61,905 nucleotides of DNA, taken from positions 1 through 61,905 of the forward strand of contig CAZKAW010000002.1 of NCBI GenBank assembly GCA_964551255.1, read 5' to 3'. Under the pieces are notes generated by a model, which was not told the origin of the DNA, searched no databases, and saw nothing but the letters and a program-made list of their open reading frames with translations. A program made the translations under genes and the position numbers. This document shows positions 26,583-61,905 of this stretch, piece by piece. How positions within the stretch are numbered: position 1 is the first letter of the stretch; each line of letters begins with the position of its first letter. This stretch comes from an uncultured Gammaproteobacteria bacterium (GTDB lineage Bacteria; Patescibacteriota; Microgenomatia; Daviesbacterales; UBA10151).

Positions 26583-28466
26583 TTACAACTTAAATTTGAA
26601 CTCTTTATCCATATCTAATTTAAAATCTTCCACTTGTCTGCCGTTTAACTTAACTTTGTAACGAAAATCTTTGGCTCCCGGTTGCTTTTGAATTAGGAGC
26701 TTATATTCTCCTTTTGGATTATAAGAAATCTCATACTCTATCTCCATCTTTCTGCTATTTTGAGGCCTGACAGTAATAAAGGTCTCAAACACGCTTTTAT
26801 CAAGCTCATCCTCAATTTGTCTAACACTCTCTTCTGCTCCCTTCCCAGAAATTAATTTGCTGGCTTTGGGTACATAAAACCTGACATAATCTCTATTTAT
26901 TCCATTCAGCCAAATATTAAAGGGTTGGGGATTTTTATATTCTATGGTGATTTTCTTTCTAACTCCTTCGGGTTTGACATTTATTTCTTGTGTGACAGTT
27001 TGTTCAACATACAGATTAGATTTTCCTCCGGCAAAATTGGAATCATTAATATGTAAATAATCTCCCTCAAAATTATTAATTTGTCCGGTCCAATTTAGCA
27101 AAGATAAAGACTCCTGCAACTTATTATCATGCATATAAAACATGACATGTTTGTGACTAGCAAGTCTGGCCAAAGTCTCCAGCAGTTGAGGCAACTTTTC
27201 TACATCTGCTCCCACACTTCTTGCCAAAATTTGCTGCATTAGCACTCCTAGGATGGCCTTTCTGTCTTTTTCACCCTTGGCGGCAATCTCCGCATAATTT
27301 TCCAATTCAAAAATGACATTGGGACAATTGCATCTTTTATCCACTTCGGCGGAATACTTAGTTCCAAAAACATCAATTGGCCCTGTCACCTCTATCATCT
27401 CTTCCACCACTTGTGAATCAATAAATATTATTCCTTCAAAAGGCAGTCCTTCTCCCAAAAGCTGATACATTCTTTCAAACTCTTTGGCAGAAGTGGGTAC
27501 GTCAGGAGATATATTTGAATCCCTCATACTCCAAGCTGACCTTGGTTTTCCGGTTACTTCCGGCAAATACCTGACAATAGGGGATGGGGGAGAAAGAGGA
27601 CAAATTTTGGATAGACATACATTTAATAACTTTTCATCCAGCCGATAAATATCATCTGAGGTAGTAGCGTTAACTTGGCCGTTATCTATAGTTAAGGTGG
27701 CAAAGGCGGTCATAAATCCTCCGGTCGGTCTTATCTCCTTATCGTTTTGGAAAAGCAGCAAATAATTTTTGGCAGAAGGAATTCCTAAAGCAATGGGAGC
27801 TTGTTCCAAAGCCGGTTTTCCCTCTTTAACAGCCGTTGCTGCTCCTATCATAAAGTTTTTCAACACTTGTAAATTTCTCCTTATTTCCTTACCTTTAAAA
27901 CTGGAAGGGTATTTATCGGTATCGATATTTTTTACGGAATCCGCAGCCTTAACCAAATTACTTTCCACCTTGTCTAAAAAAGGAATGCTCTTTTCTAAAA
28001 GTTTAACCGCCTGGCTTACTCTGTCAGGTCCGCTTTTGGGGTAGCCGTCAAATCTAAGCTCTTGCTGGCCGGGAGCTAAATTTTCTAAAATAGTTTCCAA
28101 AGCAGTCAGTTCTTCTACACCTGCCTGAGAAAAACCTTTAAGGTCGGCGTAGTAGCCTCCCAGAAAAGGAATTATCTTAAGCCAAAAGAGAAAATTTAAT
28201 GAAATATTTACCTTCTGTAAACTATCTTTAATTTTGCGGCTTTCCTGTCTTAACTGATCAAAATTCTGATTTTTATAGGCGGAAGTTAAAGCCTGACCGT
28301 GAGAAGAAACTTCTTTTAATCCAAAATAAATAAATACGGAGGGAAGAACTAAGGCAACCAGTAAAATGACCAAAAGCACTGTTAACCTTCTGCCAAACCT
28401 ATTTTTTTTGTTAGCATAGTTTCCGCTATAAAGATTTATTTTTTTATTTAAGTTGGCAAATGCCAT
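26583..28466 (-). CDS. DUF4012-type membrane-anchored extracytoplasmic protein
   Basis: N-terminal TM helix and a large external domain. The motif NYLLLFQNDKEIRPTGGFMTAFATLTIDNGQV resembles the DUF4012 core as I remember it. Confidence 0.6.
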   Translation of the reverse strand: MAFANLNKKINLYSGNYANKKNRFGRRLTVLLVILLVALVLPSVFIYFGLKEVSSHGQALTSAYKNQNFDQLRQESRKIKDSLQKVNISLNFLFWLKIIPFLGGYYADLKGFSQAGVEELTALETILENLAPGQQELRFDGYPKSGPDRVSQAVKLLEKSIPFLDKVESNLVKAADSVKNIDTDKYPSSFKGKEIRRNLQVLKNFMIGAATAVKEGKPALEQAPIALGIPSAKNYLLLFQNDKEIRPTGGFMTAFATLTIDNGQVNATTSDDIYRLDEKLLNVCLSKICPLSPPSPIVRYLPEVTGKPRSAWSMRDSNISPDVPTSAKEFERMYQLLGEGLPFEGIIFIDSQVVEEMIEVTGPIDVFGTKYSAEVDKRCNCPNVIFELENYAEIAAKGEKDRKAILGVLMQQILARSVGADVEKLPQLLETLARLASHKHVMFYMHDNKLQESLSLLNWTGQINNFEGDYLHINDSNFAGGKSNLYVEQTVTQEINVKPEGVRKKITIEYKNPQPFNIWLNGINRDYVRFYVPKASKLISGKGAEESVRQIEDELDKSVFETFITVRPQNSRKMEIEYEISYNPKGEYKLLIQKQPGAKDFRYKVKLNGRQVEDFKLDMDKEFKFKL

Positions 28467-28467
28467 T

Positions 28468-29097
28468 TTAAACAGCTCCTTTTCCTGACAAAACAGCCGG
28501 AATGGTTTTTAATATAATCCAAAAATCATAAAGTAGTGATCTTTTTTTAACATACTGGGCATCCATTTTTACTCTTTTATCAAAGTTTATTTGAGACCTG
28601 CCAGTGACTTGCCAAAGACCTGTTAAACCCGGTTTTCCGGATAAGATTATCTTAACAAATTTTTTAGAATTAGGGTATTTTTCCTGTTGTTCCTCCAACT
28701 CATAGGGATAATATGCTCTTGGCCCCACAACACTCATATCACCTTTTAGGATATTAAAAAATTGAGGAAATTCATCAATGGAGAATCTGCGCAAAAACCT
28801 GCCGACCTTGGTGGTCCGGGGATCATTAAATATTTTGTAGCTATTTTTTTTATATTCTGCCAAAAGTTTGGGATTATTGTCTAAAACCTGCTGGGCATTT
28901 TGGACCATAGAACGAAACTTATGTATTTTAAAAAGTTTGCCTCCTTTACCGGCCCTCATCGGGGTATTGGCTAAAATCGGCCCGGGCGAGTCTAACTTAA
29001 TGGCCAGTGCCACCAGCAAAAGAAGAGGCGATAGTATAATTAGGGCAAAAATAGAACCCAAAATATCTACCAGTCTTTTAGAAAAAGCGTACATCAT
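28468..29097 (-). CDS. small monotopic phosphoglycosyl transferase (bacterial sugar transferase, PglC/WbaP C-terminal type)
   Basis: Has an N-terminal re-entrant helix. Also contains KFRSM, SIDEFPQFFNILKGDMSVVGPRA and GLTGLWQV. Confidence 0.85.
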   Translation of the reverse strand: MMYAFSKRLVDILGSIFALIILSPLLLLVALAIKLDSPGPILANTPMRAGKGGKLFKIHKFRSMVQNAQQVLDNNPKLLAEYKKNSYKIFNDPRTTKVGRFLRRFSIDEFPQFFNILKGDMSVVGPRAYYPYELEEQQEKYPNSKKFVKIILSGKPGLTGLWQVTGRSQINFDKRVKMDAQYVKKRSLLYDFWIILKTIPAVLSGKGAV

Positions 29098-29103
29098 CTT
29101 TTA

Positions 29104-30114
29104 TTAGTTTACCAAAGATACAACTACACTGGCAAAATCTTTTTTAAAAGCTTCTTTGCTAAAGCGTCTTGCACTCAATCGACAATCTAGCGGGTTAATA
29201 TTAGCAGACTCCAATTTTTTAATCGCCGCTACTAAAGATTCTACTTTCTGATCTTCAAAAAATATTCCGGTTTTACCCTCTATCACTGTTTCTAAAACTC
29301 CTCCTGCTTTGTAGGCAATTACCGGTTTACCCAAAGCCTGTATTTCCAAAGAAGACAAACCGAAATCTTCAATTCCGGGAATAAGCAGGGCTCTGGCTCC
29401 GGCCAAAATTGACATAACTATCTCATCCTCCAATTCTCCGCTGATTATTTTAAGCGGAATATTAAGATAATCGCATGCTGCTTGAGCTAAGTCCACTCTT
29501 TTGTATTTAGTGGGTCTGGCTGCTATTACCAAGTAACCTCCATCAAAAATTTCAATATCATCAAATCTATTAAGATCTACAAATGGATAAACAACTCGGG
29601 AGTCTCGAGCGTAGATTTTTTTAATTCTTTTTTTGGCATTTTCGGATCCGGCAATAAAATAATCTACTCTTCTGGCAGAAATTTGATCATATATTCTTAA
29701 TTTGCTCATTAGTATCTCTGCTGCTTCGTAGCTTTTCTCACCCGATAAATGCCAAAGGAATCTTGGGGGAGTGTGACAATAACAGAGATGCTTAGTTTGA
29801 GGTTTAGTAATAATAGATTTGGCAAATCTGGTAGTTTGGGAAATCACCAGATCGAACTTATCAAAATTAAACTGCTCAAAGGCTACAGGATAGAAGGGAA
29901 GCAAGGTTTTATAAAGGGATCTCCAGCCGGGAATATTTTGTAAAAAAGAAGTGATAATCTGCTTAGAGCTAAACTGTTTCGCCAGTACGGTGTTAGTAGA
30001 ATCATAAACAGAAGTAAAAATGGGAGCCCGGGGAAACATCTCACAAAGACCCAAAAGCACCCTCTCTGCTCCACCCCACTGCACCAAATCATCATGCACT
30101 AAAGCTATCCGCAT
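29104..30114 (-). CDS. GT4-family (GT-B) glycosyltransferase
   Basis: Contains MRIALVHDDLVQWGGAERV and the C-terminal EDFGLSSLEIQALGKPVIA (E-x7-E-like). Confidence 0.75.
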   Translation of the reverse strand: MRIALVHDDLVQWGGAERVLLGLCEMFPRAPIFTSVYDSTNTVLAKQFSSKQIITSFLQNIPGWRSLYKTLLPFYPVAFEQFNFDKFDLVISQTTRFAKSIITKPQTKHLCYCHTPPRFLWHLSGEKSYEAAEILMSKLRIYDQISARRVDYFIAGSENAKKRIKKIYARDSRVVYPFVDLNRFDDIEIFDGGYLVIAARPTKYKRVDLAQAACDYLNIPLKIISGELEDEIVMSILAGARALLIPGIEDFGLSSLEIQALGKPVIAYKAGGVLETVIEGKTGIFFEDQKVESLVAAIKKLESANINPLDCRLSARRFSKEAFKKDFASVVVSLVN

Positions 30115-31223
30115 GTTTTGTAAACCTCCAAAGTTTGTCCGGCCAACTTTTCCCAGCTGAATAATTTTATTCTTCGTTTGCCCTTTTTAATAAGTTGTTT
30201 TCTTAACTGCCCTGAATTTAAAACTTGTTTTATTTTATCTGCCATATCTTCCAGGTTATGAGGATTAAAATATAACGGGGCTTTTCCCCCCACTTCTTGT
30301 AAGGAGCCGGAATTTGAGGAAACATCGGGACAAGAACAAGCCATTGCCTCAAGCAGGGGAATTCCAAACCCTTCTTCAAAAGACGGCAGTACGAACATTT
30401 GAGCATTTTTATAAAAGGCTACCAGCTCGCTATCCGAAACAAAACCGGTATAAATTATATTCTTCTGTTGATTCTCTTTTTTTAATCTTTCCCAAAAATA
30501 GTGATCATATCCGCAAAGGACTAAGTTCAAATCCTTATATTTAGTTTTCAACCTTAGAAATACTTTAATCAACCCTTCGACATTTTTGTGAGGATGTGCA
30601 TTACCAACATAAAAAATATACGGGTATTCTATATTAAATTTCTTAATTGCCTGATAACTCTCTTTTGGGGACATACGAGTATTAATGGACAAAATATTAT
30701 CATCCACTGCCTCCGGTGTAACGGTAATTTTTTCTTCATTTACTTTCCACTCTGAAGTCAAAAGGCTTTGAACATATTTTGAAGGAGTTAAGATTTGGCA
30801 GGACCTGGTAACAGCATTTCTAAAAACTCTTCTATAACCTATTTGTTTTATCTTAAAAGCAAAGGGGCTTAAGGTAGTAGCTCTTTTCATTGAGTGATGC
30901 TGATGTATTAAATCATGTATAGTGACAACAAATTTTCCTCCATAGAAAATGGGGACATTGAAATGGGGAAAGTGAACCAAATCAAGTTTATAAAAGTCTA
31001 ATAGTTTGGGAAGGTTAAATTGTTCGGTAAAGGAATACCAGCTAAAATCGGCCAAGACTTTTGTAAAATTTTTGCTTTCACTAAATTCTTTAAAATCTTT
31101 AGGCAATAAAAAAATAAAATACTGATTTTTGCTATCTAAAACTTTTAAATTTTTAATTAGATTTCTTAAATATCTGCCTACTCCGGACTCATTGTAAAAT
31201 CTGGCGTCAATTCCAATCTTCAT
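30105..31223 (-). CDS. GT4-family glycosyltransferase
   Basis: Contains PSFEEGFGIPLLEAMACSCPDV (E-x7-E) and a typical GT-B two-domain length. Confidence 0.8.
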   Translation of the reverse strand: MKIGIDARFYNESGVGRYLRNLIKNLKVLDSKNQYFIFLLPKDFKEFSESKNFTKVLADFSWYSFTEQFNLPKLLDFYKLDLVHFPHFNVPIFYGGKFVVTIHDLIHQHHSMKRATTLSPFAFKIKQIGYRRVFRNAVTRSCQILTPSKYVQSLLTSEWKVNEEKITVTPEAVDDNILSINTRMSPKESYQAIKKFNIEYPYIFYVGNAHPHKNVEGLIKVFLRLKTKYKDLNLVLCGYDHYFWERLKKENQQKNIIYTGFVSDSELVAFYKNAQMFVLPSFEEGFGIPLLEAMACSCPDVSSNSGSLQEVGGKAPLYFNPHNLEDMADKIKQVLNSGQLRKQLIKKGKRRIKLFSWEKLAGQTLEVYKTCG

Positions 31224-32413
31224 CCTCCGCCTCTCCCTACATCTTCATAAATTCGGCTTAATTTTTCTGCTATGGCATCCCAGGCATATTTTTCCCGGAC
31301 CAACTTTTTAGCATTTCGGGCAATCTTTTTGGAAAGATCACGGTTTTTAATCAGTTCAACAGCGGCAAGGGCAATCTCCTCCGGACTATCCCTGATGATA
31401 ACATCAACTCCATCTTTGGCGTCTGTTCCCCTGATACCTATTGAAGTCGTGACCACCGGAAGACCGGAAGCAAAGGCTTCAAAATTTTTGTAGCGCGTTC
31501 CTCCGCCTCCGTAAATTGGCGCCACCAGTACACTTGCCTGTTGATAAACCTCTCTGACATCGGTAACTTCCTTAACAATAATTCTCTCTGAAGCCAACTT
31601 GGGAAAAAATTTACCGGCATCCTTGCCAATTATCCAAAGCTTAGCTGAGGAAATTTGTGAATTTATGACAGGCCAAACTTTGTCTATTAATATTTTTACT
31701 GCTTCTCTATTTTGCAACCAGGTAAAGTTACCCAAATATAAAATAATGGCTTTCTTTGGACGAGCTTTTATTTTTTTGCTAAAATATTTACTGTCAACTC
31801 CATTAGGAACAATGTCTACATCCAGTAATGGAGTTTGAAGATGCATAATCTGCTTATCTTCCCAGGACATAGCCACTACTCTGCTGGCTCTACTCCAAAA
31901 ATTTCTCTCCCAGTATTTCATCTTTAAAACATCAAGGTACAAAAGGGGCCTTAATGGCAATAGCGGGTGACTTTCCGCATAATGCCTATAAACTAAGTAC
32001 TCAATAGTTTGTTCTACCAGCAGTATGGGAATTTTAGTTTCCGGGATGTGAGGCATGACATAAAAAGTCTCTGCATGAATCAGGTCAAAATTTTCCTCTT
32101 TTAGCTTTTTTTCAATTGCACTCTTTTCTCCTGTAGCCCAATTTCTAACAACCAAAAAAGGGAAAAAACTAAGACCTGTTCTTAGAATATTAATAAATGT
32201 CCAAGGCTTCTCAGACCTGTTAAAAACCTGTACTTCACTGCAGTATTTTTCCAGCTCTCCCACATACTTTCTCTCCGCATCATTTTTAACCAGACAAAAT
32301 AAAGCAACTTTGTGACCTAAAGATGATAGTCTTTTGATTAAATTATAAGAGCGGGTTTGTCCACCGGTTAAAAGCGGGTAAGGTAAGTATGGAGTAAGCA
32401 TCAAAACTCTCAT
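31220..32413 (-). CDS. GT4-family glycosyltransferase
   Basis: The N-terminus MRVLMLTPYLPYPLLTGGQTRSYNL is typical. The C-terminal domain carries GGGGTRYKNFEAFASGLPVV. Confidence 0.8.
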   Translation of the reverse strand: MRVLMLTPYLPYPLLTGGQTRSYNLIKRLSSLGHKVALFCLVKNDAERKYVGELEKYCSEVQVFNRSEKPWTFINILRTGLSFFPFLVVRNWATGEKSAIEKKLKEENFDLIHAETFYVMPHIPETKIPILLVEQTIEYLVYRHYAESHPLLPLRPLLYLDVLKMKYWERNFWSRASRVVAMSWEDKQIMHLQTPLLDVDIVPNGVDSKYFSKKIKARPKKAIILYLGNFTWLQNREAVKILIDKVWPVINSQISSAKLWIIGKDAGKFFPKLASERIIVKEVTDVREVYQQASVLVAPIYGGGGTRYKNFEAFASGLPVVTTSIGIRGTDAKDGVDVIIRDSPEEIALAAVELIKNRDLSKKIARNAKKLVREKYAWDAIAEKLSRIYEDVGRGGG

Positions 32414-32415: not shown

Positions 32416-33873
32416 TTAAGGCTCCGGATCTAATCTACTAAAATCCTTTTTTAATCTGGTTAAATCCGCAATTACATAATCTGAAGTTTGCCAAATGGGA
32501 TAGAAGTGTCTTAAAACCCAATTAGTCCTGCCGTCATAACTGGTTGATACATAGTAGTTTACTCCATAGTCCGCAATTAAATCTCGAATTGAAGTTGGAA
32601 CATAAGCCCATCCGGCCCTGTTGGTCTGGTATAAAAAGGCAGTATCACCTCCGTATGGGGCTAAAACTATGGCATTTTTGGGTACCATCTCATCTACTTT
32701 CTTTCCTGCCTCAACCATTGAAGGGTTATTCACTTTATAAAATTCACTTACTGTTTTATATCCAAAATAGATAGCAAGAATGTATAGTAGAAGTGCCAAA
32801 AAAATAGTAAATATTCTGGGAACAAAAAATTTTTCTCCTTTAATTAAAGCTGCAAATCCTAAGGATACAAAAGCAGATGCAACCGGCACAAATATCAGCT
32901 GGTAATAATTATGCCTGACATTTCCTGTTGCAAAAACAATAAAATATAAAAACAATGATAAAGTCCAAAGATGCAGAAAATAATTTCCATTTTTAGGTTT
33001 TAATACCAGTCCCAGGAAAAATAAAACTAAACCCGTTGCTCCTAAGACTTCCCTACCCATCCTTTCCGAAACAATCCACCACCAAAATGAGGGACGAAAA
33101 CGGATATTGTCGCCGTTAGCTAACCAGGAAGAAGCCGGAATCCCGGAGGGCATTTGTTGTATCCAAAGCCGCCAGAAAATAAATGGGAATACTGCAAATA
33201 TAGACAATATGAGAAAAACCTTAAACTTTTTATTTTTAAGGGCTAAATATAAAAGCGGCAGATAGAAAAAAATTGCCCAGGGTTTTATTAAAAAAGCTAT
33301 CGAGGTAAATATATATCCCAAAAGCATAAACCTCTTCCCCTTTTTTTCCAGCCACTCTCCCACAAAATACATCATTCCCAGAGCAAAGAAAATAAAGGTA
33401 GGTTCCGGCAAAGTTGACCGAGAAAAGAAAACATTAAAAGGCAGTATGGTAAAAGTTAGCGCAGCAAATGCGGCGACAAATTTGGAAGAATACTTTTTAA
33501 TTATAAAGTATAAAAACACCGTACTTCCTAAGGAAAAAAGTATTGACACTAATCGGTGATATTTTTCGTCAATCCCAAAAATTAAATAAAAAGGATAAAC
33601 CGCGATATTGTAAATAGGGAACTCTACAAAACGATACCTTGCCGGGTTGGCTACGGGCCGCTCGGCAACAGGAGACATATCATCATATTTTGGTTTGAGA
33701 GGATTAAAGCCTTCCTTAATAAAATTTCTGGTGACGGCTGCCGTATCTGCTTGTCTCCAGGAATGCCAGTCAGCAATAGGTGAATCTATTTTATAAAGCC
33801 TCAGAAGAAAACCAATAATTAACAGTAAAGCAAGCCAAAAATATGTTTTTCTGAAAATTTTTATAATTATCAT
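32416..33873 (-). CDS. GT-C fold membrane glycosyltransferase (ArnT/PMT, COG1807-like)
   Basis: About 11 TM helices. The first external loop carries ADWHSWRQADTAAVTRNF. A C-terminal soluble domain is present. Confidence 0.65.
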   Translation of the reverse strand: MIIIKIFRKTYFWLALLLIIGFLLRLYKIDSPIADWHSWRQADTAAVTRNFIKEGFNPLKPKYDDMSPVAERPVANPARYRFVEFPIYNIAVYPFYLIFGIDEKYHRLVSILFSLGSTVFLYFIIKKYSSKFVAAFAALTFTILPFNVFFSRSTLPEPTFIFFALGMMYFVGEWLEKKGKRFMLLGYIFTSIAFLIKPWAIFFYLPLLYLALKNKKFKVFLILSIFAVFPFIFWRLWIQQMPSGIPASSWLANGDNIRFRPSFWWWIVSERMGREVLGATGLVLFFLGLVLKPKNGNYFLHLWTLSLFLYFIVFATGNVRHNYYQLIFVPVASAFVSLGFAALIKGEKFFVPRIFTIFLALLLYILAIYFGYKTVSEFYKVNNPSMVEAGKKVDEMVPKNAIVLAPYGGDTAFLYQTNRAGWAYVPTSIRDLIADYGVNYYVSTSYDGRTNWVLRHFYPIWQTSDYVIADLTRLKKDFSRLDPEP

Positions 33874-53991: not shown

Positions 53992-54045
53992 TGATTTATA
54001 GAAATTTTCAAAGAAAATTTTAAAAAAAACATTATAAACCTTACC

Positions 54046-54059: not shown

Positions 54060-54087
54060 AAATAGCAATTTTAGTATGGGGTTGTAA

Positions 54088-55912: not shown

Positions 55913-55916
55913 AAAT

Positions 55917-56888
55917 CTAATCTTCAGATCTGACAATCCAAATTGAGCCACCTTTAAAATACGGGGATTTAGGAAATGTCTTCTTGAGATCCTCAAGATA
56001 ATTAGCAGCAATGTAACTATTTGAATATAGGACCTTAAATTTACTATTAAAAATTAGGAAAGCTTGTAGTAAATATTGCTCTGCCCAAAATCTATGCTCT
56101 TTTAAAACCCATTCCTCTGGGTAGTCAAAAGGGAAAAATATATCGTGAATATGTACTAATACTCCCTTTTTAAGTCTTGGCAAGACTTCTAAAAATAGAT
56201 AATTTACATCACCGCCAGTTTTAACTGTATGGGAAGAATCTATAAAGAGAATATCATTTTCTTCTAATTTAGAAAAAAAACTAATCGGTAGTTTTTGAAC
56301 ATCTTTGTCATATAATTTTGTTAGCCCCAGATATCCTTTCTTCATAAATTCCTGGGGGAATGGTTCAATGCAAGTCAATTTGCTAGAACCATTTTTGATT
56401 GCTGCCAATGCTGCTATTTTACTGGACCATCCTGATCCTACCTCTATAATATTTTTGCTCTTAAAATGTCTAATTATAGAATAATAAACTAGTGCATCTA
56501 CTCCATCAAACGCTAAATTGTGAAAATGAAATTCATAATCTCTACCTGTTGGAGTATGGGGAATCAAATTATATTCATTTTTAAATTTAGAGAATTTTTC
56601 TAAAAATCCTGATTGCATTTTGTCATCAAAATTTATGCCGGGAAGTTGCGACTTTCTCTTAAAGAAATTCTTACTTAGCTTAGATGGATCAGGTATTGGC
56701 TGATAAAAATGGTTTGGTATTACAAAGAAGCCATTCCTAAGCCAAAAATCAAAAAAATCATAATGAATAAAATCTCCATGTCCTATTCTAAAACTGTTTA
56801 GGATTTTTGCAACCAATTTTGCCTTAGCAAATCTGAACTTCTTATTTATCTTGGAATTGGCAATTTTTATTTTAATATCTTTTGTCAT
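55917..56888 (-). CDS. class I SAM-dependent methyltransferase (Methyltransf_24-like)
   Basis: Contains IIEVGSGWSSKI (motif I) and ILFIDSSHTVKTGGDVNYLFLEVLPRLKKGVLVHIHDIFFPFDYP. Confidence 0.7.
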   Translation of the reverse strand: MTKDIKIKIANSKINKKFRFAKAKLVAKILNSFRIGHGDFIHYDFFDFWLRNGFFVIPNHFYQPIPDPSKLSKNFFKRKSQLPGINFDDKMQSGFLEKFSKFKNEYNLIPHTPTGRDYEFHFHNLAFDGVDALVYYSIIRHFKSKNIIEVGSGWSSKIAALAAIKNGSSKLTCIEPFPQEFMKKGYLGLTKLYDKDVQKLPISFFSKLEENDILFIDSSHTVKTGGDVNYLFLEVLPRLKKGVLVHIHDIFFPFDYPEEWVLKEHRFWAEQYLLQAFLIFNSKFKVLYSNSYIAANYLEDLKKTFPKSPYFKGGSIWIVRSED

Positions 56889-57868
56889 TTTAAATTAACC
56901 TTTTTTAATAGGTTATCCCGAATCCCACAATAAAATTGCCAAAATTGATAGAATTTAGATGATTGTATTTTTCTTAAATCCTCTTCTAATTTCTCTATCT
57001 TATCCCTAAAATAATTTTCATTGTAGGATCCTTGGCTGTAATGGTCTTCTACTGCTTCTTTTAATTCAATTGAGTCAAACATTTCTTTATAACCCTTTCT
57101 CTCCCAATATTTCGCAACCTCTAGTAATCTATAAACATTCATAAACTTAGCCAAAATAAATCCATGCATTCCATCAAGATAACCTTGATGCTCAAAATAT
57201 CTCCATTTAAATTCTTTCTCAAAATATGTCACAAATTCTCCAGCACTCATTTTTTTTGATTGGAAAACCTTCTCATAAGTACTGTATCGATCTATCATCT
57301 CTAAAAGCTCTCTAATATCCGCAATGTTATAATGCACAACAGCATTTTCTTCGACAGGAGGTAAGTTAAGGATTGTTCCGTCAAATACCGGGTCTTTATG
57401 AATTTGAACTGGCCAGTCTAAATGACCTGTTTTAAAAAGTCTTAGACGGTAATCTGGCCACCATATCCCATGTTCAATCCACTTTCCCAACAGAATATTT
57501 TTAATAGGAAATTTATACCCATCATATTTTGCCTCTTTAACTATGTTTTTTATCTTTTTTAGAAGAATTTTAGTGAATCGCTCGTCGGTATCAATAATTA
57601 GAGTCCATGGCATGGTTATTTTATTTAATGCAAAATTTCGAGCAGGCTCTACATAACCATAATCCTTGATTTTATAAATTTTAGCTCCTAATTTTTCAGC
57701 CAACTCTACAGTCCTGTCAGTACTTTGCATATCAACCACAATAATTTCATCAACAATAGATTTTGCAGAATTTATGCACTCTGTAATGTTTTTTTCCTCG
57801 TTTTTAGTATTTATCATTAAACCTATTTTATTTCTATAAAACCATCTTTTGTCATTATTTTTATTCAT
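56885..57868 (-). CDS. GT2-family glycosyltransferase with C-terminal helical extension
   Basis: Contains IGLMINTKNEEKNI, EIIVVDMQSTDRT and LIIDTDER (DxD). The tail is coiled-coil-like and ends in SSKFYQFWQFY. Confidence 0.75.
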   Translation of the reverse strand: MNKNNDKRWFYRNKIGLMINTKNEEKNITECINSAKSIVDEIIVVDMQSTDRTVELAEKLGAKIYKIKDYGYVEPARNFALNKITMPWTLIIDTDERFTKILLKKIKNIVKEAKYDGYKFPIKNILLGKWIEHGIWWPDYRLRLFKTGHLDWPVQIHKDPVFDGTILNLPPVEENAVVHYNIADIRELLEMIDRYSTYEKVFQSKKMSAGEFVTYFEKEFKWRYFEHQGYLDGMHGFILAKFMNVYRLLEVAKYWERKGYKEMFDSIELKEAVEDHYSQGSYNENYFRDKIEKLEEDLRKIQSSKFYQFWQFYCGIRDNLLKKVNLK

Positions 57869-57876
57869 GAGAATTT

Positions 57877-58596
57877 TTAAGGTTTTACCGCTTCAACTAC
57901 AAAAGTTTCTAAACGATTGAACTGCTCTCCTATCGATTTACTATGAGACTCTAATCCTTTCAAGTTTGGATCTTGACTTTGCCCTGGCGTATACCTTTTA
58001 ACATTAACAAATCTTACCCTTTCGAGTAGAAATTTAAGAGTCTTAAAATCGTATATGAACTGATGTCCCCAAGCTCTGACGAAGTTATTGATAATGAAAG
58101 TATCTGTAGCTTTTCCCCATTCCTTCAGAAACTCTCCGCTTGCCCAATTAATATATTCTTGTTGCAGAGATGACTTTTTGTCTTTGTATAAATCAATCAA
58201 AAATTTTAAATCTGGAGTTGCTAATCTAACCTTGCCCTTAGGCTTAAGTACCCGATAGATTTCTCTAAGTATTATTTCTCCTTGAGCAAAACTGAAATGT
58301 TCAATTGTATGCTCACAAAAAACATAATGGAAGGAAACATCTTTAATGGGAAAAGGGTTGGTTATATCAATTGGTATAACTTTATCCGCTGCATGTAAAT
58401 CTGAATTAAGCCAGGAGTCTAAAGGGAATGGCCAACAACCTAGTTGTAGCTTTTTTATTTTATGGGACTTTAAATAATCTTCAATTATTTTATTACGATT
58501 GAAATAGATTTTATACTGATAAGAATGCCATTTCAATTTTTCTATCAGTTTTTTAGTCGCCGTTAAGACTCCAAACATAACCTTGATTATATCCAA
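57877..58596 (-). CDS. class I SAM-dependent methyltransferase (Methyltransf_11-like)
   Basis: Contains LQLGCWPFPL and FCEHTIEHFSFAQGEIILREIYRVLKPKGKVRLATPD. Confidence 0.7.
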   Translation of the reverse strand: MDIIKVMFGVLTATKKLIEKLKWHSYQYKIYFNRNKIIEDYLKSHKIKKLQLGCWPFPLDSWLNSDLHAADKVIPIDITNPFPIKDVSFHYVFCEHTIEHFSFAQGEIILREIYRVLKPKGKVRLATPDLKFLIDLYKDKKSSLQQEYINWASGEFLKEWGKATDTFIINNFVRAWGHQFIYDFKTLKFLLERVRFVNVKRYTPGQSQDPNLKGLESHSKSIGEQFNRLETFVVEAVKP

Positions 58597-58625: not shown

Positions 58626-60740
58626 ATGAGGTTAAAGCTTTTTATATACTTTTTATTTTTGTTTTTCTTGCTTTCTTTTTTTGCATCAGGAGTAGTTGAC
58701 TCTCAAGACGGTTTTTTATACCTCTCTGTTGCCAGAAGTATTTATTATAAGGGAGATTTCACAGCACCTATTAATGAATATGATTATGAAAAAAATACAG
58801 GGAAAAATATTATTTTAGGGACATATATTGGAAGAAATGGCAAAACCTATAGTCATACCGGAATTGGTTATTCTGTTGCGCTGCTACCTGCAGTTTTTAT
58901 AGCAGATACGGTATATAAAATATATAATATCTCTCCTGCTATTCATTTTCCTTTGGAAAGCGATTGGCTTATTTTACTTCTTGCCTCTTTTACTAATGCT
59001 TTTTTTGGCAGCATTTTGGGTGTAATTATGTTCCTTTATTTAAAAGAGCTTCATTTGTCAGTAAAACAAGCCTTTTTTATCAGCTTGGCAACTATATTAG
59101 GAACAAATCTTTGGGTTTATACAAAACATTCACTAGCCCATATGATGTTTATCGTCTTCTTAATGCTTTCTTTCTATCTTTTGAAAAGATATTCCCGCTC
59201 TTCCAAATTACTCTATTTAATGTTTTCTGCTATTAGCTTTGGGGTATTAATAATTACCTATAATCAGACCTTTATGTTGGCAATATTACCTTTCACTGTT
59301 TATTATTTACTCCTGCATAATATCAAATTTAACAGATATCATTTTCAAAAAATTGTCAAGGATTTATTTGTATTTTTGGTGGCAGTTGTCCCTTTTATTT
59401 TGCTTTATCTCATAATTGAAAATACGAGAGCTGAAAAAATTACGTCCCTAGAAATTAACTATGCTAACCCGTTAGCAGTTATTACTCTAGCATTAAAACC
59501 CTTCATAACTCTACCCATTGGTGTAATCTTTGAGGGAGTCTGGGGACAACTATTGAGTCCAGGTAGAAGCATTTTTCTATATTCTCCAATATTGTTAATA
59601 CCAATTTTCTTCTGGCATAAGATCAAAGTGACGGTTAAAGCAGAGCTGGTGGTGTTTATATTACTGGGCATTCTATATGTTCTTTTTATTGCTACCCAAT
59701 ATCGAGTGGGACTGGAAAAAGATGGTTTATTTCTTGTCTGGCATGGTGAATCTAGTTGGGGACCTAGATATTTAACACCACTTATTCCTTTTGGCATGCT
59801 TTTAGTAGGAGGCATCTTTAGGCAACTAAGTAACTGGCAAAGATATGTCGTCTTTTATCCTCTTCTATTGGTAGGTATTATTGTAAATTTTCTGGGTATT
59901 ATCATGCCTTATCAATTAAAGTTTCATAATCTAGAAAAGGAATTTCATATCAATGGCCAACAATATACTAATTCTTCATATATAAACCTCCTTCCTAGAT
60001 ATACACCAATCATCTCTATGTCTAAGAATCTAGTAAAACTGATACAAGATTTTCCCCAAACTTTAGCTCATGGAATATATAAAGTTAAATTCTATGATGG
60101 GATAGATTTTCCTTTCAATGTAGGCCCTGAAAGATGGAGAGTTATTGAAGGCAAAGGATACATATCTTTTGATAATAGTCTAAGTAGTCCTGTAAAAGAA
60201 TTAACTTTTGGGTTAATTAATCATCCTCTTGCGGAAGCAAGTGAATCTGCAGCTTTGGTGAACTTTTATCTAAACAAAGAAAAACTTAATCAGTCTGCTA
60301 CAATCATAGCCAAGGAGAGATCTTTAATATCCGTTCCAATTAAATCATCTGTTTTACAAGAAAAAGGCAATAATCTCATTATTGATGTTCAATATGATGA
60401 TCCAACCGTTTTTCCGCAAAAAAAACAAATCTTAGGATTGATATCCATGACTATCAACAATGCTCCAATAAATTTAGAAACTTTGAATTTCCCGTTTATT
60501 TCAGATCTTGGTCCTGCCATGGGTTTCAAATATCAAAATTATGGAAATATCATATCTACGCCCTGGAAAGCTTGGGATATTCATACCCAAATTTATGAGA
60601 GGACACCTGATTTTTGGTGGATCAAACCACTCTACTATTGGGATCTACCAAAAAATTTATTCCTAGGAATGTTTATTTTAAACATTGCTAGTCTTATATT
60701 TTTTGCAGCTAAAACCTTTAATTGGATAAAAAGATCATAA
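58626..60740 (+). CDS. large GT-C-like polytopic membrane glycosyltransferase with C-terminal soluble domain and terminal TM helix
   Basis: The first loop is VVDSQDGFLYLSVARSIYYKGDF. About 12 TM helices are followed by a soluble region of about 230 aa and a final TM helix. Confidence 0.55.
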   Translation: MRLKLFIYFLFLFFLLSFFASGVVDSQDGFLYLSVARSIYYKGDFTAPINEYDYEKNTGKNIILGTYIGRNGKTYSHTGIGYSVALLPAVFIADTVYKIYNISPAIHFPLESDWLILLLASFTNAFFGSILGVIMFLYLKELHLSVKQAFFISLATILGTNLWVYTKHSLAHMMFIVFLMLSFYLLKRYSRSSKLLYLMFSAISFGVLIITYNQTFMLAILPFTVYYLLLHNIKFNRYHFQKIVKDLFVFLVAVVPFILLYLIIENTRAEKITSLEINYANPLAVITLALKPFITLPIGVIFEGVWGQLLSPGRSIFLYSPILLIPIFFWHKIKVTVKAELVVFILLGILYVLFIATQYRVGLEKDGLFLVWHGESSWGPRYLTPLIPFGMLLVGGIFRQLSNWQRYVVFYPLLLVGIIVNFLGIIMPYQLKFHNLEKEFHINGQQYTNSSYINLLPRYTPIISMSKNLVKLIQDFPQTLAHGIYKVKFYDGIDFPFNVGPERWRVIEGKGYISFDNSLSSPVKELTFGLINHPLAEASESAALVNFYLNKEKLNQSATIIAKERSLISVPIKSSVLQEKGNNLIIDVQYDDPTVFPQKKQILGLISMTINNAPINLETLNFPFISDLGPAMGFKYQNYGNIISTPWKAWDIHTQIYERTPDFWWIKPLYYWDLPKNLFLGMFILNIASLIFFAAKTFNWIKRS

Positions 60741-61060: not shown

Positions 61061-61082
61061 GTTAGTGATATACTAAAGTGAT

Positions 61083-61865
61083 ATGTTAAGGAAATTGATT
61101 CTTCCTTTTATTGCTTACAAATATTTACTTTTTCAATTAGTTCAGCGCGAAATCAAAGCAAGGTACAAACAATCTATAATTGGCTTTGTCTGGATTATTT
61201 TCAACCCATTAATACAGTTAATGATTTATTCCTTTGTTTTTTCTATAATATTTAGATTTCCAACTGGTGGTGTTCCTTATTCAATATTTCTTTTTGTTGG
61301 TTTGCTTCCCTGGATATATTTACAAACTTCTCTCTCTTCTTCTACTTTAGTTCTGGTAGATAATGCAAATCTAATAAAGAAGGTTAATTTTCCCAGAGAA
61401 GTGCTGCCTTATTCTGTAATCTTGGCAAAAAGCATTGATTTATTTTTTTCTTTAGTATTGCTTTTTGTACTCATGTTGTTTTATAAAATAGCTATTCCTT
61501 TAACAGTAATTGTTGTTATTCCACTTCTTTTTATTCAAGTCTTACTAATGACCGGTCTGGCCCTATTTTTATCGGCAGCCAATCTTTTTTATCGGGATAT
61601 TCAGTATTTAACTAACTTAATTCTTCTTGTATGGCTTTATGTTACACCAGTAGTATATCCTCTCTCGCTTGTACCAAAGGAGTATGTTTGGCTTTATAAA
61701 TTGAACCCCATGGTAGGAATTACCGAGGGTTATAGGTCGGCCCTGCTGAATCTTCCTTTTGATATCGGCACTATTGTATGGTCTGCTATATCTGCAATGG
61801 TAATATTTATAGTTGGTTTTTGGGTCTTTAAAAGGGGAGAAAAAGTTTTCGCAGATATTGTCTAA
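61083..61865 (+). CDS. ABC-2 type polysaccharide/teichoic-acid export permease (Wzm/TagG)
   Basis: Contains REIKARYKQSIIGFVWIIFNPL, six TM helices and the length typical of ABC-2 permeases. Confidence 0.85.
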   Translation: MLRKLILPFIAYKYLLFQLVQREIKARYKQSIIGFVWIIFNPLIQLMIYSFVFSIIFRFPTGGVPYSIFLFVGLLPWIYLQTSLSSSTLVLVDNANLIKKVNFPREVLPYSVILAKSIDLFFSLVLLFVLMLFYKIAIPLTVIVVIPLLFIQVLLMTGLALFLSAANLFYRDIQYLTNLILLVWLYVTPVVYPLSLVPKEYVWLYKLNPMVGITEGYRSALLNLPFDIGTIVWSAISAMVIFIVGFWVFKRGEKVFADIV

Positions 61866-61866
61866 T

Positions 61867-61905
61867 ATGAGCAGTCCAGTTATCATTTGTAAAAATATTT
61901 CTAAA
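61867..61905 (+). CDS. start of the probable ABC exporter ATP-binding subunit (Wzt/TagH), truncated by the window edge
   Basis: An ATG lies 1 nt after the permease stop. MSSPVIICKNISK resembles the first beta-strand of ABC ATPases. Only 13 codons are visible. Confidence 0.4.
   Translation, partial: MSSPVIICKNISK

What the first reader, a model, noticed from the sequence alone, without database searches (positions are those of the whole stretch)
26583..61905. 35-kb envelope-glycan locus built around eleven GT-C/Wzy_C-type membrane enzymes, with no Wzx flippase, Wzy polymerase or PCP
Seen in sequence:
- One initiating phosphoglycosyl transferase (28468).
- Six GT4 and three GT2 enzymes.
- Two methyltransferases, one acetyltransferase and galE.
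- A Wzm/Wzt exporter at the right edge.
- Eleven large polytopic proteins: 32416, 33870, 38609, 40447, 42018, 43516, 44911, 47034, 49509, 51239 and 58626.
- At least seven of these carry ArnT/PMT/PIG-V-type first-loop acidic motifs. One is Wzy_C.

Established knowledge: GT-C enzymes act outside the membrane and use polyprenyl-phosphate sugars. Characterised ABC-dependent glycan loci usually carry none or one or two of them. Runs of many GT-C enzymes are known mainly from mycobacterial arabinogalactan/LAM assembly.

Inference: this organism performs an unusually long series of extracytoplasmic glycosyl transfers onto a lipid-linked glycan or onto surface proteins. That pathway architecture has not been described for small-genome, probably monoderm, bacteria.
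Basis: partly seen in the sequence, partly recalled or inferred. Interest (0 to 1): 0.7.

Follow-up and report, generated by a model that had tools for sequence, protein, structure and literature searches.

The report
GT-C-rich envelope glycan locus, Patescibacteria
A tiny-genome candidate-phyla-radiation bacterium devotes 35 kb next to its cell-division genes to a surface-sugar assembly line with nine membrane enzymes that probably add sugars outside the cell; the layout is conserved in its relatives and has not been described or studied.

Summary
The genes are real and sit at the stated coordinates. The counts hold: one Bac_transf initiating enzyme, six GT4, three GT2, two methyltransferases, one hexapeptide acyltransferase and GalE. 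Two corrections apply. Only Wzm lies in the window; Wzt is off the contig end and is inferred from nine related loci. Of the eleven polytopic proteins, nine are GT-C-type, one is Wzy_C, and 38609 is not a glycosyltransferase. Its outer domain folds like a glycoside hydrolase/deacetylase.

New findings: the contig comes from a Daviesbacteria-like member of the Patescibacteria. The locus order is conserved in Daviesbacteria, and a smaller core recurs across the wider group. The small GT2 at 48761 resembles dolichol-phosphate-mannose synthase. In seven other organisms a homologue of it is fused to a 47034-type GT-C, which suggests a donor-synthase/transferase pair.

Best reading: a lipid-linked glycan is made in the cytoplasm, exported by the ABC transporter, elaborated outside by the GT-C enzymes, and then handed on by the Wzy_C enzyme.

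Lacking Wzx, Wzy and PCP is normal for ABC-dependent pathways. Each half of the design has precedents: S-layer glycan clusters and mycobacterial arabinogalactan. I rate it a new variant of a known kind, of moderate to good interest.

The parts
26583..28466 (-). DUF4012 protein with one N-terminal membrane helix; last gene of the long minus-strand operon
   Evidence: Pfam DUF4012, 85.7 bits. One hydrophobic segment at residues 22-54. The family is enriched in CPR bacteria and linked to EPS clusters (PMC6744442).
28468..29097 (-). Small initiating phosphoglycosyl transferase (Bac_transf)
   Evidence: Pfam Bac_transf, E 5e-61, covering profile positions 1-178 of 179.
29104..32413 (-). Three GT4 Leloir glycosyltransferases (29104-30114, 30105-31223, 31220-32413)
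   Evidence: Pfam Glycos_transf_1 and Glyco_transf_4 above threshold. No hydrophobic segments.
32416..33873 (-). GT-C enzyme, PMT_2 type
   Evidence: Pfam PMT_2, 46.8 bits (cut-off 26.1). hhalign 98.5% against the 43516 family. D35 and D43 in the first loop are conserved, though in only 3 sequences.
33870..35303 (-). Wzy_C-domain protein: candidate ligase or O-oligosaccharyltransferase; a polymerase is not excluded
   Evidence: Pfam Wzy_C, 33.1 bits (cut-off 31.7). About 12 hydrophobic segments and a 118-aa loop. No profile link to the GT-C families, all <=1.2%.
35287..35838 (-). Conserved 183-aa protein with hydrophobic N- and C-terminal segments; function unknown
   Evidence: No Pfam hit. 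Orthologues sit next to the acyltransferase in many related loci.
35835..36437 (-). Hexapeptide-repeat acyltransferase
   Evidence: Pfam Hexapep, 65 bits.
36450..38602 (-). Two GT4 glycosyltransferases (36450-37586, 37583-38602); part of the core conserved across Patescibacteria
   Evidence: Pfam Glycos_transf_1, 138 and 80 bits. The pair is conserved in most related loci.
38609..40444 (-). NOT a GT-C. Signal/anchor helix, an extracytoplasmic domain of about 360 aa with the glycoside hydrolase/deacetylase fold, and a C-terminal membrane domain of about 220 aa
   Evidence: Model pLDDT 87.5, pTM 0.87. Foldseek: 3lm3 at E 3e-11, then CE4/NodB deacetylases. 5 of 10 orthologues give weak DUF3863 hits. 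There is no invariant His in the outer domain.
40447..43526 (-). Two related GT-C enzymes (40447-42021, 42018-43526)
   Evidence: Pfam PMT_2 at 23.2 and 22 bits, just under the 26.1 cut-off. hhalign 99.6% to each other, and 96.3% and 98.0% to the 43516 family. First-loop D40/D44 and D36 are conserved.
43516..44907 (-). GT-C enzyme, PMT_2 type, with a WWDE first-loop motif; core gene across Patescibacteria
   Evidence: Pfam PMT_2, 64.3 bits. NCBIfam Agl23 hit at 54.9 bits, sub-threshold. D26 and E27 are invariant in 36 sequences.
44911..46023 (-). Small GT-C enzyme of PIG-V (GT76-like) type
   Evidence: 6 of 14 orthologues hit Pfam Mannosyl_trans2, best E 1.7e-9. Invariant W59-x-N-F-D63-G-x-H-Y motif. 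The window protein itself gives only weak hits.
46011..47024 (-). UDP-glucose 4-epimerase (GalE)
   Evidence: PDB 8wxk, E 1e-69, and E. coli GalE, E 1e-54. Pfam Epimerase.
47034..48683 (-). GT-C-like core enzyme with no Pfam family; first gene of the long minus-strand operon, divergent from 48761
   Evidence: hhalign 96-97% to the 42018 family over 350-394 columns and 94% to the 43516 family. E39 and D43 are invariant in 64 sequences. Seven family members carry an N-terminal GT2 domain. The family has 636 clusters at 50% identity.
48761..49507 (+). Small GT2: candidate polyprenyl-phosphate-sugar synthase that makes the donor for the GT-C enzymes
   Evidence: Best PDB match is P. furiosus dolichol-phosphate-mannose synthase 5mlz, E 1.5e-17. 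ArnC and GtrB follow further down the list, after a chondroitin synthase match at 57 bits. It is homologous over its full length to the GT2 domains fused to 47034-type proteins. It lies within 1.5 kb of the 47034 homologue in 20 of 43 loci.
49509..52957 (+). Tandem GT-C paralogues (49509-51242, 51239-52957), 57% identical, with a 222-bp identical 3' end
   Evidence: Model of 49509: pLDDT 90.1, pTM 0.91. Foldseek top 22 hits are all GT-C enzymes. D36 is invariant in 40 sequences. Repeat shown.
52954..54561 (-). GT4 gene split in two ORFs (54088-54561 is the N-terminal part, 52954-53991 the GT4 part); a single protein of 510-535 aa in relatives
   Evidence: BLASTP of both halves against single proteins in L003 and L008. 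An A15 tract lies in the 96-bp gap. Pfam Glycos_transf_1.
54533..56011 (-). GT2 glycosyltransferase with a C-terminal extension; always paired with the GT4 above in relatives
   Evidence: Pfam Glycos_transf_2, 93 bits. Synteny.
55917..58596 (-). Methyltransferase (55917-56888), GT2 (56885-57868) and methyltransferase (57877-58596)
   Evidence: Pfam Methyltransf_24, Glycos_transf_2 and Methyltransf_11.
58626..60740 (+). Large GT-C-like enzyme next to the ABC exporter; core gene across Patescibacteria
   Evidence: NCBIfam LA_3751/LA_3752 putative glycosyltransferase, E 3.5e-8, sub-threshold. hhalign 94-95% to the 43516 family. D28 is conserved in 22 of 23 sequences. A homologue lies within 1.5 kb of wzm in 11 of 16 loci.
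61083..61865 (+). Wzm, the ABC-2 permease; its partner Wzt lies beyond the contig end
   Evidence: Pfam ABC2_membrane, 72.9 bits. A Walker-A ORF follows wzm in 9 of 9 related loci inspected.

Best explanation
This is a conserved envelope-glycan assembly line of a Daviesbacteria-like member of the Patescibacteria. It works in two compartments.

Inside the cell (inferred from family membership):
- The small Bac_transf enzyme (28468) primes a polyprenyl phosphate.
- The six GT4 and two of the GT2 enzymes extend the chain from nucleotide sugars. GalE supplies UDP-Gal.
- The acyltransferase and the two methyltransferases modify the chain or cap it.
- Wzm, with an off-contig Wzt, exports the lipid-linked glycan.

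Outside the cell:
- The small GT2 at 48761 loads a sugar onto polyprenyl monophosphate.
- Nine GT-C enzymes use such lipid-linked donors to add further residues or branches to the exported glycan.
- The hydrolase/deacetylase-fold protein 38609 trims or edits the glycan.
- The Wzy_C protein 33870 transfers the product to its final acceptor: a surface protein, a lipid or the cell wall.

Shown here: the folds and families, the gene neighbourhood, its conservation, and the GT2::GT-C fusions.

Inferred: the order of steps, the sugars, the acceptor, and how the lipid-linked donor crosses the membrane. No flippase gene is present.
For: - Families and counts.
- GT-C fold of 49509.
- Profile-profile links of 32416, 40447, 42018, 47034, 49509 and 58626 to the PMT_2 anchor family 43516 at 94-98.5%. 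The polytopic negative control Wzy_C stays at or below 1.2%; 38609 is <=4% against all but the 49509 family (36%).
- PIG-V hits in 6 of 14 orthologues of 44911.
- Invariant or nearly invariant (>=90%) acidic residues in the first loop of all nine families.
- 48761 is closest to dolichol-phosphate-mannose synthase among solved structures, with ArnC and GtrB further down the list. Homologues are fused to 47034-type proteins in seven cluster representatives.
- GalE is embedded among the GT-C genes.
- Wzm is in the window and Wzt follows it in relatives.
- The block is tightly packed and operon-like.
- One-to-one orthologues of each GT-C occur in the same order in four Daviesbacteria genomes at 50-72% identity. 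This argues for distinct, non-redundant steps.
- A core of 58626, wzm, a 49509-like gene, 54533, 52954, 47034, 33870, an epimerase, 43516, 37583, 36450 and 35835 recurs across Microgenomates and Paceibacterota.
Against: - No biochemical data exist for any of these proteins.
- GT-C status of 47034 and 58626 rests on profile-profile scores, not on a Pfam hit or a model. None of 36 members of the 47034 family hits any GT-C Pfam family.
- No GtrA, MATE, SMR or Wzx-type flippase for the lipid-linked donor is present in the locus or elsewhere in the window.
- One synthase for nine GT-C enzymes implies either a single donor sugar or donors made elsewhere in the genome.
- No LCP-type wall ligase and no obvious acceptor gene are in the window.
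- My crude hydrophobicity analysis could not settle the topology.
- The GT4 at 52954/54088 is split, so one step may be inactive in this genome.
Confidence: 0.55

Rival explanations
1. The locus is mainly a protein O-glycosylation system, like the S-layer glycan (slg) clusters of Geobacillus and Paenibacillus or pilin glycosylation. The ABC-exported, methyl-capped glycan is transferred en bloc to an S-layer protein or pilin by the Wzy_C enzyme acting as an O-oligosaccharyltransferase. Some PMT_2-type GT-C enzymes add sugars directly to proteins.
For: The set Bac_transf + Leloir GTs + methyltransferase + Wzm/Wzt + Wzy_C matches the slg cluster model point by point, including the lower G+C (PMC2943079; G+C). 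No LCP wall ligase is in the window. PMT_2 is the family of protein mannosyltransferase relatives. CPR cells carry abundant pili (PMC6744442) and, from my own recollection of published cryo-EM work, S-layers.
Against: No S-layer or pilin gene is adjacent to the locus. slg clusters do not contain runs of GT-C enzymes. None of the GT-C proteins has the MIR domains of true protein O-mannosyltransferases (no such Pfam hit).
Confidence: 0.3
2. The block is a juxtaposition of separate systems, not one pathway. An ABC-dependent polymer module lies on the right and a Bac_transf/GT4/Wzy_C module on the left. Between them is a collection of independent GT-C enzymes, each adding an optional side-chain decoration (antigenic variation), as in Shigella/Salmonella Gtr or streptococcal side-chain systems.
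For: There are three transcription units with different orientation. G+C drops from about 0.37 to 0.30 over 48-60 kb. The number of GT-C genes per related 21-kb locus varies from 1 to 7. The 49509/51239 pair is duplicated, with a 222-bp converted end, and copy number and orientation vary among relatives. One GT4 is split at an A15 tract.
Against: Gene order from 36450 to 54533 is kept in four Daviesbacteria genomes, with one-to-one orthologues at 50-72% identity. That is not the behaviour of hypervariable decoration genes. The left and right modules stay linked in distant relatives (L011, L014, L024, L027). There is only one candidate donor synthase and no flippase, whereas independent Gtr-type systems each carry their own.
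Confidence: 0.2
3. Some of the GT-C-like proteins are not transferases. In particular, 47034 could be the membrane anchor and/or flippase partner of the soluble synthase 48761, as DPM3 anchors DPM1. This would explain the missing flippase.
For: 48761 has no transmembrane segment. It is fused to, or divergently paired with, 47034-type proteins. No flippase gene is present. Three PMT_2-type proteins here give sub-threshold hits to the NCBIfam family named 'flippase activity-associated protein Agl23'.
Against: 47034 keeps invariant E39 and D43 in the first loop in all 64 sequences, and it has a conserved C-terminal soluble domain of about 150 aa. These are features of a catalytic GT-C rather than a passive anchor.
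Confidence: 0.15

Closest known systems
Mycobacterial/corynebacterial arabinogalactan and lipoarabinomannan assembly (Emb, Aft and Mpt GT-C enzymes with a Wzm/Wzt-like exporter); comparison from my own knowledge of the field
   Same: The lipid-linked primer and backbone are made in the cytoplasm by Leloir enzymes and exported by an ABC-2 transporter. Several GT-C enzymes then extend the glycan outside the membrane from polyprenyl-phosphate sugars. Several GT-C genes are clustered. AftD and AftA are among the best structural matches of the 49509 model.
   Different: No decaprenyl-phospho-arabinose pathway genes (UbiA-type synthase, DprE1/2), no GtrA-like flippase and no LCP ligase are in the window. 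The donor synthase here is a DPMS-like GT2. A Wzy_C protein is present. The organism is a roughly 1-Mb Patescibacterium with no evidence of a mycolate outer membrane. The GT-C proteins are PMT_2/PIG-V-like, not Emb/Aft orthologues.
S-layer glycan (slg) clusters of Geobacillus stearothermophilus and Paenibacillus alvei (PMC2943079)
   Same: A monoderm, ABC-transporter-dependent glycan with a Bac_transf (WsaP-type) initiating enzyme, soluble GTs, a methyltransferase thought to cap the chain, Wzm/Wzt, and a Wzy_C-domain transferase (WsaB). G+C is lower than the surroundings.
   Different: slg clusters have no run of GT-C enzymes and no polyprenyl-phosphate-sugar synthase/GT-C couple. An S-layer gene is nearby there, but none is seen here.
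Three-component extracytoplasmic glycosylation systems (polyprenyl-phosphate-sugar synthase + flippase + GT-C: Gtr, ArnC/ArnT, streptococcal side-chain systems, GT136; PMC11127046) and Rhizobium RgtA-E (from my own knowledge)
   Same: A GT2 synthase related to DPMS/ArnC/GtrB works with GT-C transferases that modify a glycan after export. In Rhizobium, one synthase serves four PMT_2-type GT-C enzymes.
   Different: No flippase component was found. There are nine GT-C enzymes rather than one to four. In some relatives the synthase is fused to a GT-C-like protein. The GT-C set is conserved as a fixed series rather than as an optional add-on.

Membership tests
GT-C fold glycosyltransferases (nine candidates) | Significant match to a curated GT-C family profile | tested here: inconclusive
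   Above Pfam threshold for 32416 and 43516 only. Just below threshold for 40447 and 42018. No hit for 44911, 47034, 49509, 51239 or 58626 themselves. Orthologues of 44911 hit PIG-V. 58626 hits an NCBIfam putative-GT family below its cut-off.
GT-C fold glycosyltransferases (nine candidates) | Three-dimensional fold matching solved GT-C enzymes | tested here: met
   Met for 49509. By 57% identity this extends to 51239, which was not itself modelled. pLDDT 90; Foldseek top hits are DPY19, STT3, PglB, AglB, AftD, AftA, Pmt4 and ArnT.
GT-C fold glycosyltransferases (nine candidates) | N-terminal membrane helix followed by a long first loop carrying a conserved acidic residue | tested here: met
   First loops are 44-91 aa long. 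Each of the nine families keeps an invariant or nearly invariant (>=90%) Asp/Glu there.
GT-C fold glycosyltransferases (nine candidates) | Homology between the unassigned families and an assigned GT-C family | tested here: met
   hhalign against the 43516 (PMT_2) family gives 94-98.5% for 32416, 40447, 42018, 47034, 49509 and 58626. The Wzy_C control is <=1.2% and the 38609 control is <=4% against all but the 49509 family (36%). 44911 is not linked this way, at 23% or less.
GT-C fold glycosyltransferases (nine candidates) | First loop faces outward, and the donor is a polyprenyl-phosphate sugar | not testable with these tools
   A crude hydropathy and K/R count was inconclusive. Topology is inferred from homology only, and donor use needs biochemistry.
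ABC-transporter-dependent glycan pathway | Wzm permease and Wzt ATPase | tested here: inconclusive
   Wzm is present. Wzt lies outside the window but follows wzm in 9 of 9 related loci inspected.
ABC-transporter-dependent glycan pathway | Lipid-phosphate initiating enzyme plus cytoplasmic GTs, with no Wzx flippase or chain-length regulator | tested here: met
   Bac_transf, six GT4 and three GT2 are present. No MOP/Wzx or Wzz family hit occurs in any ORF.
Three-component glycosylation system | Polyprenyl-phosphate-sugar synthase of GT2 type | tested here: met
   For 48761 the best solved relative is DPMS 5mlz (E 1.5e-17), with ArnC and GtrB further down the list. It is fused to 47034-type proteins elsewhere. 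Activity was not tested.
Three-component glycosylation system | Dedicated flippase (GtrA, MATE or SMR type) | tested here: not met
   No such family is found in any ORF of the locus or the rest of the window. No hidden small hydrophobic ORF lies in the gaps.
Mycobacterial arabinogalactan-type pathway | Decaprenyl-phospho-arabinose synthesis genes and an LCP ligase near the GT-C genes | tested here: not met
   No UbiA, DprE or LytR_cpsA_psr hits anywhere in the window.
S-layer glycan (slg) cluster | Bac_transf initiating enzyme, Wzm/Wzt, methyltransferase and Wzy_C transferase | tested here: met
   All are present, with Wzt by inference. Compared with PMC2943079.
S-layer glycan (slg) cluster | Linked S-layer structural gene or demonstrated protein acceptor | tested here: not met
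   No S-layer-like gene is found in the 61.9-kb window. The acceptor cannot be determined from sequence.
CE4/NodB polysaccharide deacetylase (for 38609) | NodB-type fold | tested here: met
   Foldseek: 3lm3 at E 3e-11, HP0310, PdaC and other CE4 enzymes.
CE4/NodB polysaccharide deacetylase (for 38609) | Asp-His-His metal-binding triad | tested here: not met
   There is no invariant or nearly invariant His in residues 1-380 among 40 homologues. The invariant residues are mainly Asp, Glu, Arg, Trp, Gln, Tyr and Ser. I therefore do not file it as a canonical deacetylase. It may be a hydrolase or transglycosylase of the same superfamily.
Wzy_C (O-antigen ligase/polymerase/O-OTase) for 33870 | Pfam Wzy_C above threshold and a large outer loop late in the protein | tested here: met
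   33.1 bits against a 31.7 cut-off. A 118-aa loop lies between hydrophobic segments 9 and 10. Whether it is a ligase, OTase or polymerase cannot be told from sequence.

The most novel reading that the evidence does not exclude
Patescibacteria as a group build a major, possibly essential, arabinogalactan-like secondary envelope heteropolysaccharide (or a heavily glycosylated surface layer) largely outside the membrane. They do so with a conserved series of five to nine GT-C enzymes fed by a soluble DPMS-like synthase. That synthase docks on, or is fused to, a GT-C-like membrane partner (the 47034 family), which replaces the usual dedicated flippase. This would be an unrecognised core feature of the CPR cell envelope and an independent second origin of the 'many GT-C' strategy known from mycobacteria.
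Probability: 0.2. Interest if true: 0.8.

Novelty: new variant of a known kind. Interest (0 to 1): 0.55.

Why it matters
The composition of the cell envelope of candidate-phyla-radiation bacteria is essentially unknown. Published genome surveys tend to describe these organisms as depleted in polysaccharide metabolism (PMC7137472).

This locus shows a roughly 1-Mb-genome lineage spending 35 kb on a surface glycan, placed directly beside the division and cell-wall cluster. About 40% of the locus encodes GT-C enzymes, and the design is kept across the group.

If the model holds, three things follow. It gives named candidate genes for the glycan that mediates attachment to hosts and phage recognition. 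It adds several unannotated GT-C families; the 47034 family alone has about 640 clusters at 50% identity. It also offers a fused synthase::GT-C protein as a simple system for studying how lipid-linked donors are handed across the membrane.

Tried and rejected
- Single-sequence searches of 47034, 49509, 58626 and 38609 against PDB sequences found nothing.
- Profile searches of the 47034, 38609 and 44911 families against PDB sequences also found nothing useful.
- Scanning 36 members of the 47034 family against Pfam gave no GT-C hit. Its assignment therefore rests on profile-profile comparison and on the fusions.
- Looking up the Wzm protein to extend the contig returned only a 1.25-kb fragment.
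- Cluster look-up gave no source names.
- My hydropathy-based helix calling was too crude for a positive-inside test of topology.
- I suspected that the 104-aa hydrophobic ORF at 2525-2839 is the tail of a Wzx-type flippase. Pfam gave no hit, so this stays an unverified impression.
- The N-terminal PMT_2 part of the fusion protein P0340 is not a clear orthologue of 40447 (E 0.011). That fusion is only weak support for a 40447/38609 partnership.
- I considered filing 38609 as a CE4 deacetylase and rejected it because the His-His site is missing.
- I considered 'no Wzy polymerase' as a finding and rejected it, because Wzy_C proteins can be polymerases.
- Rfam found only two tRNAs and no regulatory RNA in the locus.

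Full report
**What is there.** The interval 26583-61905 holds 29 tightly packed ORFs. It is 98.8% coding, with only three gaps over 30 bp. There are four transcription units:
- a long minus-strand operon from 48683 down to 26583;
- a divergent plus-strand unit, 48761-52957;
- a minus-strand unit, 58596-52954;
- a plus-strand unit, 58626 to the contig end.

- a small Bac_transf initiating enzyme (28468);
- six GT4 (29104, 30105, 31220, 36450, 37583, 52954);
- three GT2 (48761, 54533, 56885);
- two methyltransferases (55917, 57877);
- a hexapeptide acyltransferase (35835);
- an epimerase (46011), a genuine GalE by its PDB relatives (E 1e-69);
- an ABC-2 permease, Wzm (61083).

Wzt is not in the window. 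In nine related loci I inspected, a Walker-A ORF of 243-282 aa always follows wzm, so Wzt almost certainly lies just beyond the contig end.

**Where it comes from.** The window is a whole 61,905-bp NCBI contig. Its proteins are closest to Candidatus Daviesbacteria; 47034 is 72% identical to a protein on JACOXI010000006.1. The left 26 kb of the window is the division and cell-wall cluster: MraW, FtsI, Mur ligases, MurA, MraY, FtsW, MurG and FtsQ/A/Z. It also carries IleRS, RodA, ParB and signal peptidase. The organism therefore makes peptidoglycan, and the glycan locus directly adjoins that cluster.

**The eleven polytopic proteins.** All eleven are real, and hydropathy confirms they are polytopic.

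*Assigned by Pfam.* Two pass the PMT_2 threshold: 32416 at 46.8 bits and 43516 at 64.3 bits. Two fall just under it: 40447 at 23.2 and 42018 at 22.0, against a cut-off of 26.1. 33870 passes Wzy_C narrowly, at 33.1 against 31.7. Six had no Pfam hit.

*Profile-profile comparison.* I built family alignments from 68 related genome loci and compared the profiles. The PMT_2 anchor family (43516) matched:

| Family | hhalign probability |
|---|---|
| 32416 | 98.5% |
| 42018 | 98.0% |
| 40447 | 96.3% |
| 49509/51239 | 95.9% |
| 47034 | 94.3% |
| 58626 | 94.1% |

Two polytopic families served as internal negative controls. Wzy_C (33870) stayed at or below 1.2% against every GT-C family. The membrane part of 38609 stayed at or below 4% against all but the 49509 family (36%). 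The 47034-42018 alignment runs over 350-394 columns, including the C-terminal soluble domain.

*Structure of 49509.* A prediction from 36 homologues was confident (pLDDT 90.1, pTM 0.91). Its 22 best PDB matches are all GT-C enzymes: the C-mannosyltransferase DPY19, STT3/PglB/AglB, AftD and AftA. Pmt4 and ArnT follow. 51239 is 57% identical to 49509 but was not itself modelled.

*44911.* This family has no profile link to the PMT_2 group. However, 6 of 14 orthologues hit Pfam PIG-V (best E 1.7e-9), and the family keeps a W-x-N-F-D-G-x-H-Y motif in the first loop.

*Acidic first-loop residues.* Every one of the nine families has an invariant or nearly invariant (>=90%) acidic residue in the long loop after the first helix. 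Examples are D26/E27 in 43516, E39/D43 in 47034, D36 in 49509, D63 in 44911 and D28 in 58626.

*38609 is different.* It has a signal/anchor helix, a soluble domain of about 360 aa and a C-terminal membrane domain. Its model (pLDDT 87.5) matches a putative glycoside hydrolase/deacetylase (3lm3, E 3e-11) and then NodB/CE4 deacetylases. It lacks any conserved His for the usual metal site. I call it a glycan-processing enzyme of that superfamily, not a deacetylase and not a GT-C.

*Tally.* Nine are GT-C-type, one is Wzy_C and one is a hydrolase/deacetylase-fold protein. The GT-C genes occupy 14.3 of 35.3 kb.

**The donor side.** The 248-aa GT2 at 48761 has no membrane segment. Its best solved relative is dolichol-phosphate-mannose synthase from Pyrococcus furiosus (E 1.5e-17). 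ArnC and GtrB, the enzymes that load sugars onto undecaprenyl phosphate, appear further down the same list. The gene is divergently paired with 47034 here. A homologue lies within 1.5 kb of the 47034 homologue in 20 of 43 related loci.

A profile search of 1.84 billion representatives found 636 clusters of the 47034 family. Seven of the listed members are 729-780 aa long and carry an N-terminal GT2 domain. That domain aligns with 48761 over its whole length at 27-31% identity (E 2e-20 and 6e-18). This gene fusion is the strongest functional clue in the locus: the small GT2 and the 47034-type membrane protein work together. GalE sits between two GT-C genes, which suggests a hexose donor derived from UDP-Glc or UDP-Gal. 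That last point is inference.

**Conservation.** In four Daviesbacteria genomes (L002, L003, L004, L033) the order 36450-37583-38609-40447-42018-43516-44911-47034-48761-49509-...-52954-54533 is kept, wholly or in large part, with one-to-one orthologues at roughly 50-72% identity.

A smaller core recurs in Woesebacteria, Roizmanbacteria, Paceibacterota and other Patescibacteria. It comprises wzt-wzm, 58626, a 49509-like gene, 54533, 52954, 47034, often 33870, an epimerase, 43516, 37583, 36450 and 35835. Related 21-kb loci carry one to seven GT-C-family ORFs, most often three.

The GT-C-rich design is therefore a lineage trait, expanded in Daviesbacteria, and not a peculiarity of this contig. 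Distinct, stable orthologue groups argue that each enzyme has its own step.

**How it most likely works.**
- Cytoplasmic stage (inferred from families): Bac_transf primes a polyprenyl phosphate, and the GT4 and GT2 enzymes extend the chain. The acyltransferase and methyltransferases modify or cap it, as terminal methylation does in other ABC-dependent systems. Wzm/Wzt then export it.
- Outer stage: 48761 makes a polyprenyl-phosphate sugar and the nine GT-C enzymes add residues or branches. 38609 edits the glycan. The Wzy_C protein hands the product to a protein, lipid or wall acceptor.

Shown here are the folds, the neighbourhood, the conservation and the fusion. Not shown are the sugars, the order of steps and the acceptor.

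One real hole is the flippase for the lipid-linked donor. No GtrA, MATE, SMR or Wzx family is found in the locus or elsewhere in the window, and the gaps hide no small hydrophobic ORF. Either the flippase is encoded elsewhere or one of the GT-C-like proteins does the job. 47034 is the obvious candidate.

**Comparison with what is known.** The absence of Wzx, Wzy and a chain-length regulator is expected in an ABC-dependent pathway and is not a curiosity.

The cytoplasmic half, together with the Wzy_C enzyme, matches the S-layer glycan clusters of Geobacillus and Paenibacillus. Those are monoderm organisms with a Bac_transf initiating enzyme, a methyl cap, Wzm/Wzt and the Wzy_C transferase WsaB, and their clusters also have a lower G+C (PMC2943079).

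The outer half follows the logic of three-component glycosylation systems (PMC11127046) and, from my own knowledge, of Rhizobium RgtA-E. In the number of GT-C enzymes it comes closest to mycobacterial arabinogalactan/lipoarabinomannan assembly.

The locus differs from each precedent:
- there are no arabinose-donor genes and no LCP ligase (mycobacterial model);
- there is no linked S-layer gene (slg model);
- there is no flippase, and there are far more GT-C enzymes (three-component model).

Literature searches found no description of such loci in CPR bacteria. Méheust et al. 2019 mention only DUF4012 as a CPR-enriched, EPS-linked family. A recent perspective on Patescibacteria does not mention glycans at all.

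**Verdict.** The claim of a wholly undescribed architecture is too strong. This is a new, expanded and conserved variant that combines two known designs in a group whose envelope is unknown. I score interest at 0.55.

Noticed in passing
window 51015-51236 and 52727-52948: A 222-bp stretch is exactly identical at the 3' ends of the tandem paralogues 49509 and 51239. Elsewhere the two genes are too diverged for blastn, and the proteins are 57% identical. This is either recent gene conversion or an assembly artefact.
   Followed up: partly
window 53992-54087 (A15 at 54045-54059): The GT4 that is a single protein of 510-535 aa in relatives is split here into 54088-54561 and 52954-53991. The 96-bp gap contains stop codons and a run of 15 A. 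This could be a phase-variation site, a pseudogene or a homopolymer sequencing error.
   Followed up: partly
window 330-2839: A second, stronger Wzy_C protein (1073-2212, 56.7 bits) follows a 241-aa protein with Ig-like/glucodextranase-B domains (330-1055). After it come a 113-aa ORF that looks like the first 30 residues of a GT2, and a 104-aa very hydrophobic ORF with no Pfam hit. These may be remnants of another glycan module, or an acceptor/transferase pair.
   Followed up: partly
window 48000-60000: G+C falls from about 0.36-0.40 to 0.28-0.32 across the right third of the locus. The same pattern is reported for S-layer glycan and O-antigen clusters.
   Followed up: no
window 5162-22931: A complete division/cell-wall cluster (MraW, FtsI, two Mur ligases, MurA, MraY, FtsW, MurG, FtsQ, FtsA, FtsZ), IleRS and a second SEDS protein (RodA) lie immediately left of the glycan locus. 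Only RecO, a class II aminoacyl-tRNA synthetase and a 296-aa unannotated membrane-anchored protein (23698-24588) lie in between.
   Followed up: partly
proteins P0475, P0476, P0481, P0492, P0497, P0505, P0511 and P0340 (from other organisms): These are natural fusions. Seven proteins join a 48761-like GT2 to a 47034-like membrane protein. One 1064-aa protein joins a PMT_2-type GT-C to a 38609-like protein, although its GT-C part is not a clear orthologue of 40447.
   Followed up: partly
loci L005-L012, L016-L018, L020, L021, L024, L025, L028, L029 and others: Many public metagenome-assembled genomes that carry this Patescibacteria-type locus are titled 'uncultured Gammaproteobacteria' or 'Pseudomonadales'. 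Their gene content and nearest relatives indicate that the record titles are wrong.
   Followed up: no
window 55917-56011: ORF 54533-56011 (TTG start) overlaps the end of the methyltransferase gene by 95 nt. Relatives are about 470 aa against 492 aa here, so the real start is probably further downstream.
   Followed up: no
L030:2416-6709; L015 and L044 (same genome, JBAZXP010000001.1): Copy number of the core GT-C genes varies. One Woesebacteria genome has two tandem 58626-like genes. One Microgenomates genome has two 47034-like genes about 400 kb apart.
   Followed up: no
window 33870-35303, residues 389-404: In the Wzy_C protein family the conserved motif reads T-D-N-(D/N)-x-L-R-x-L-G-E-x-G. 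As I recall, O-antigen ligases have H-N at the position of D-N. If so, the presumed catalytic His is replaced by Asp. This rests on memory of the family consensus and was not tested.
   Followed up: no
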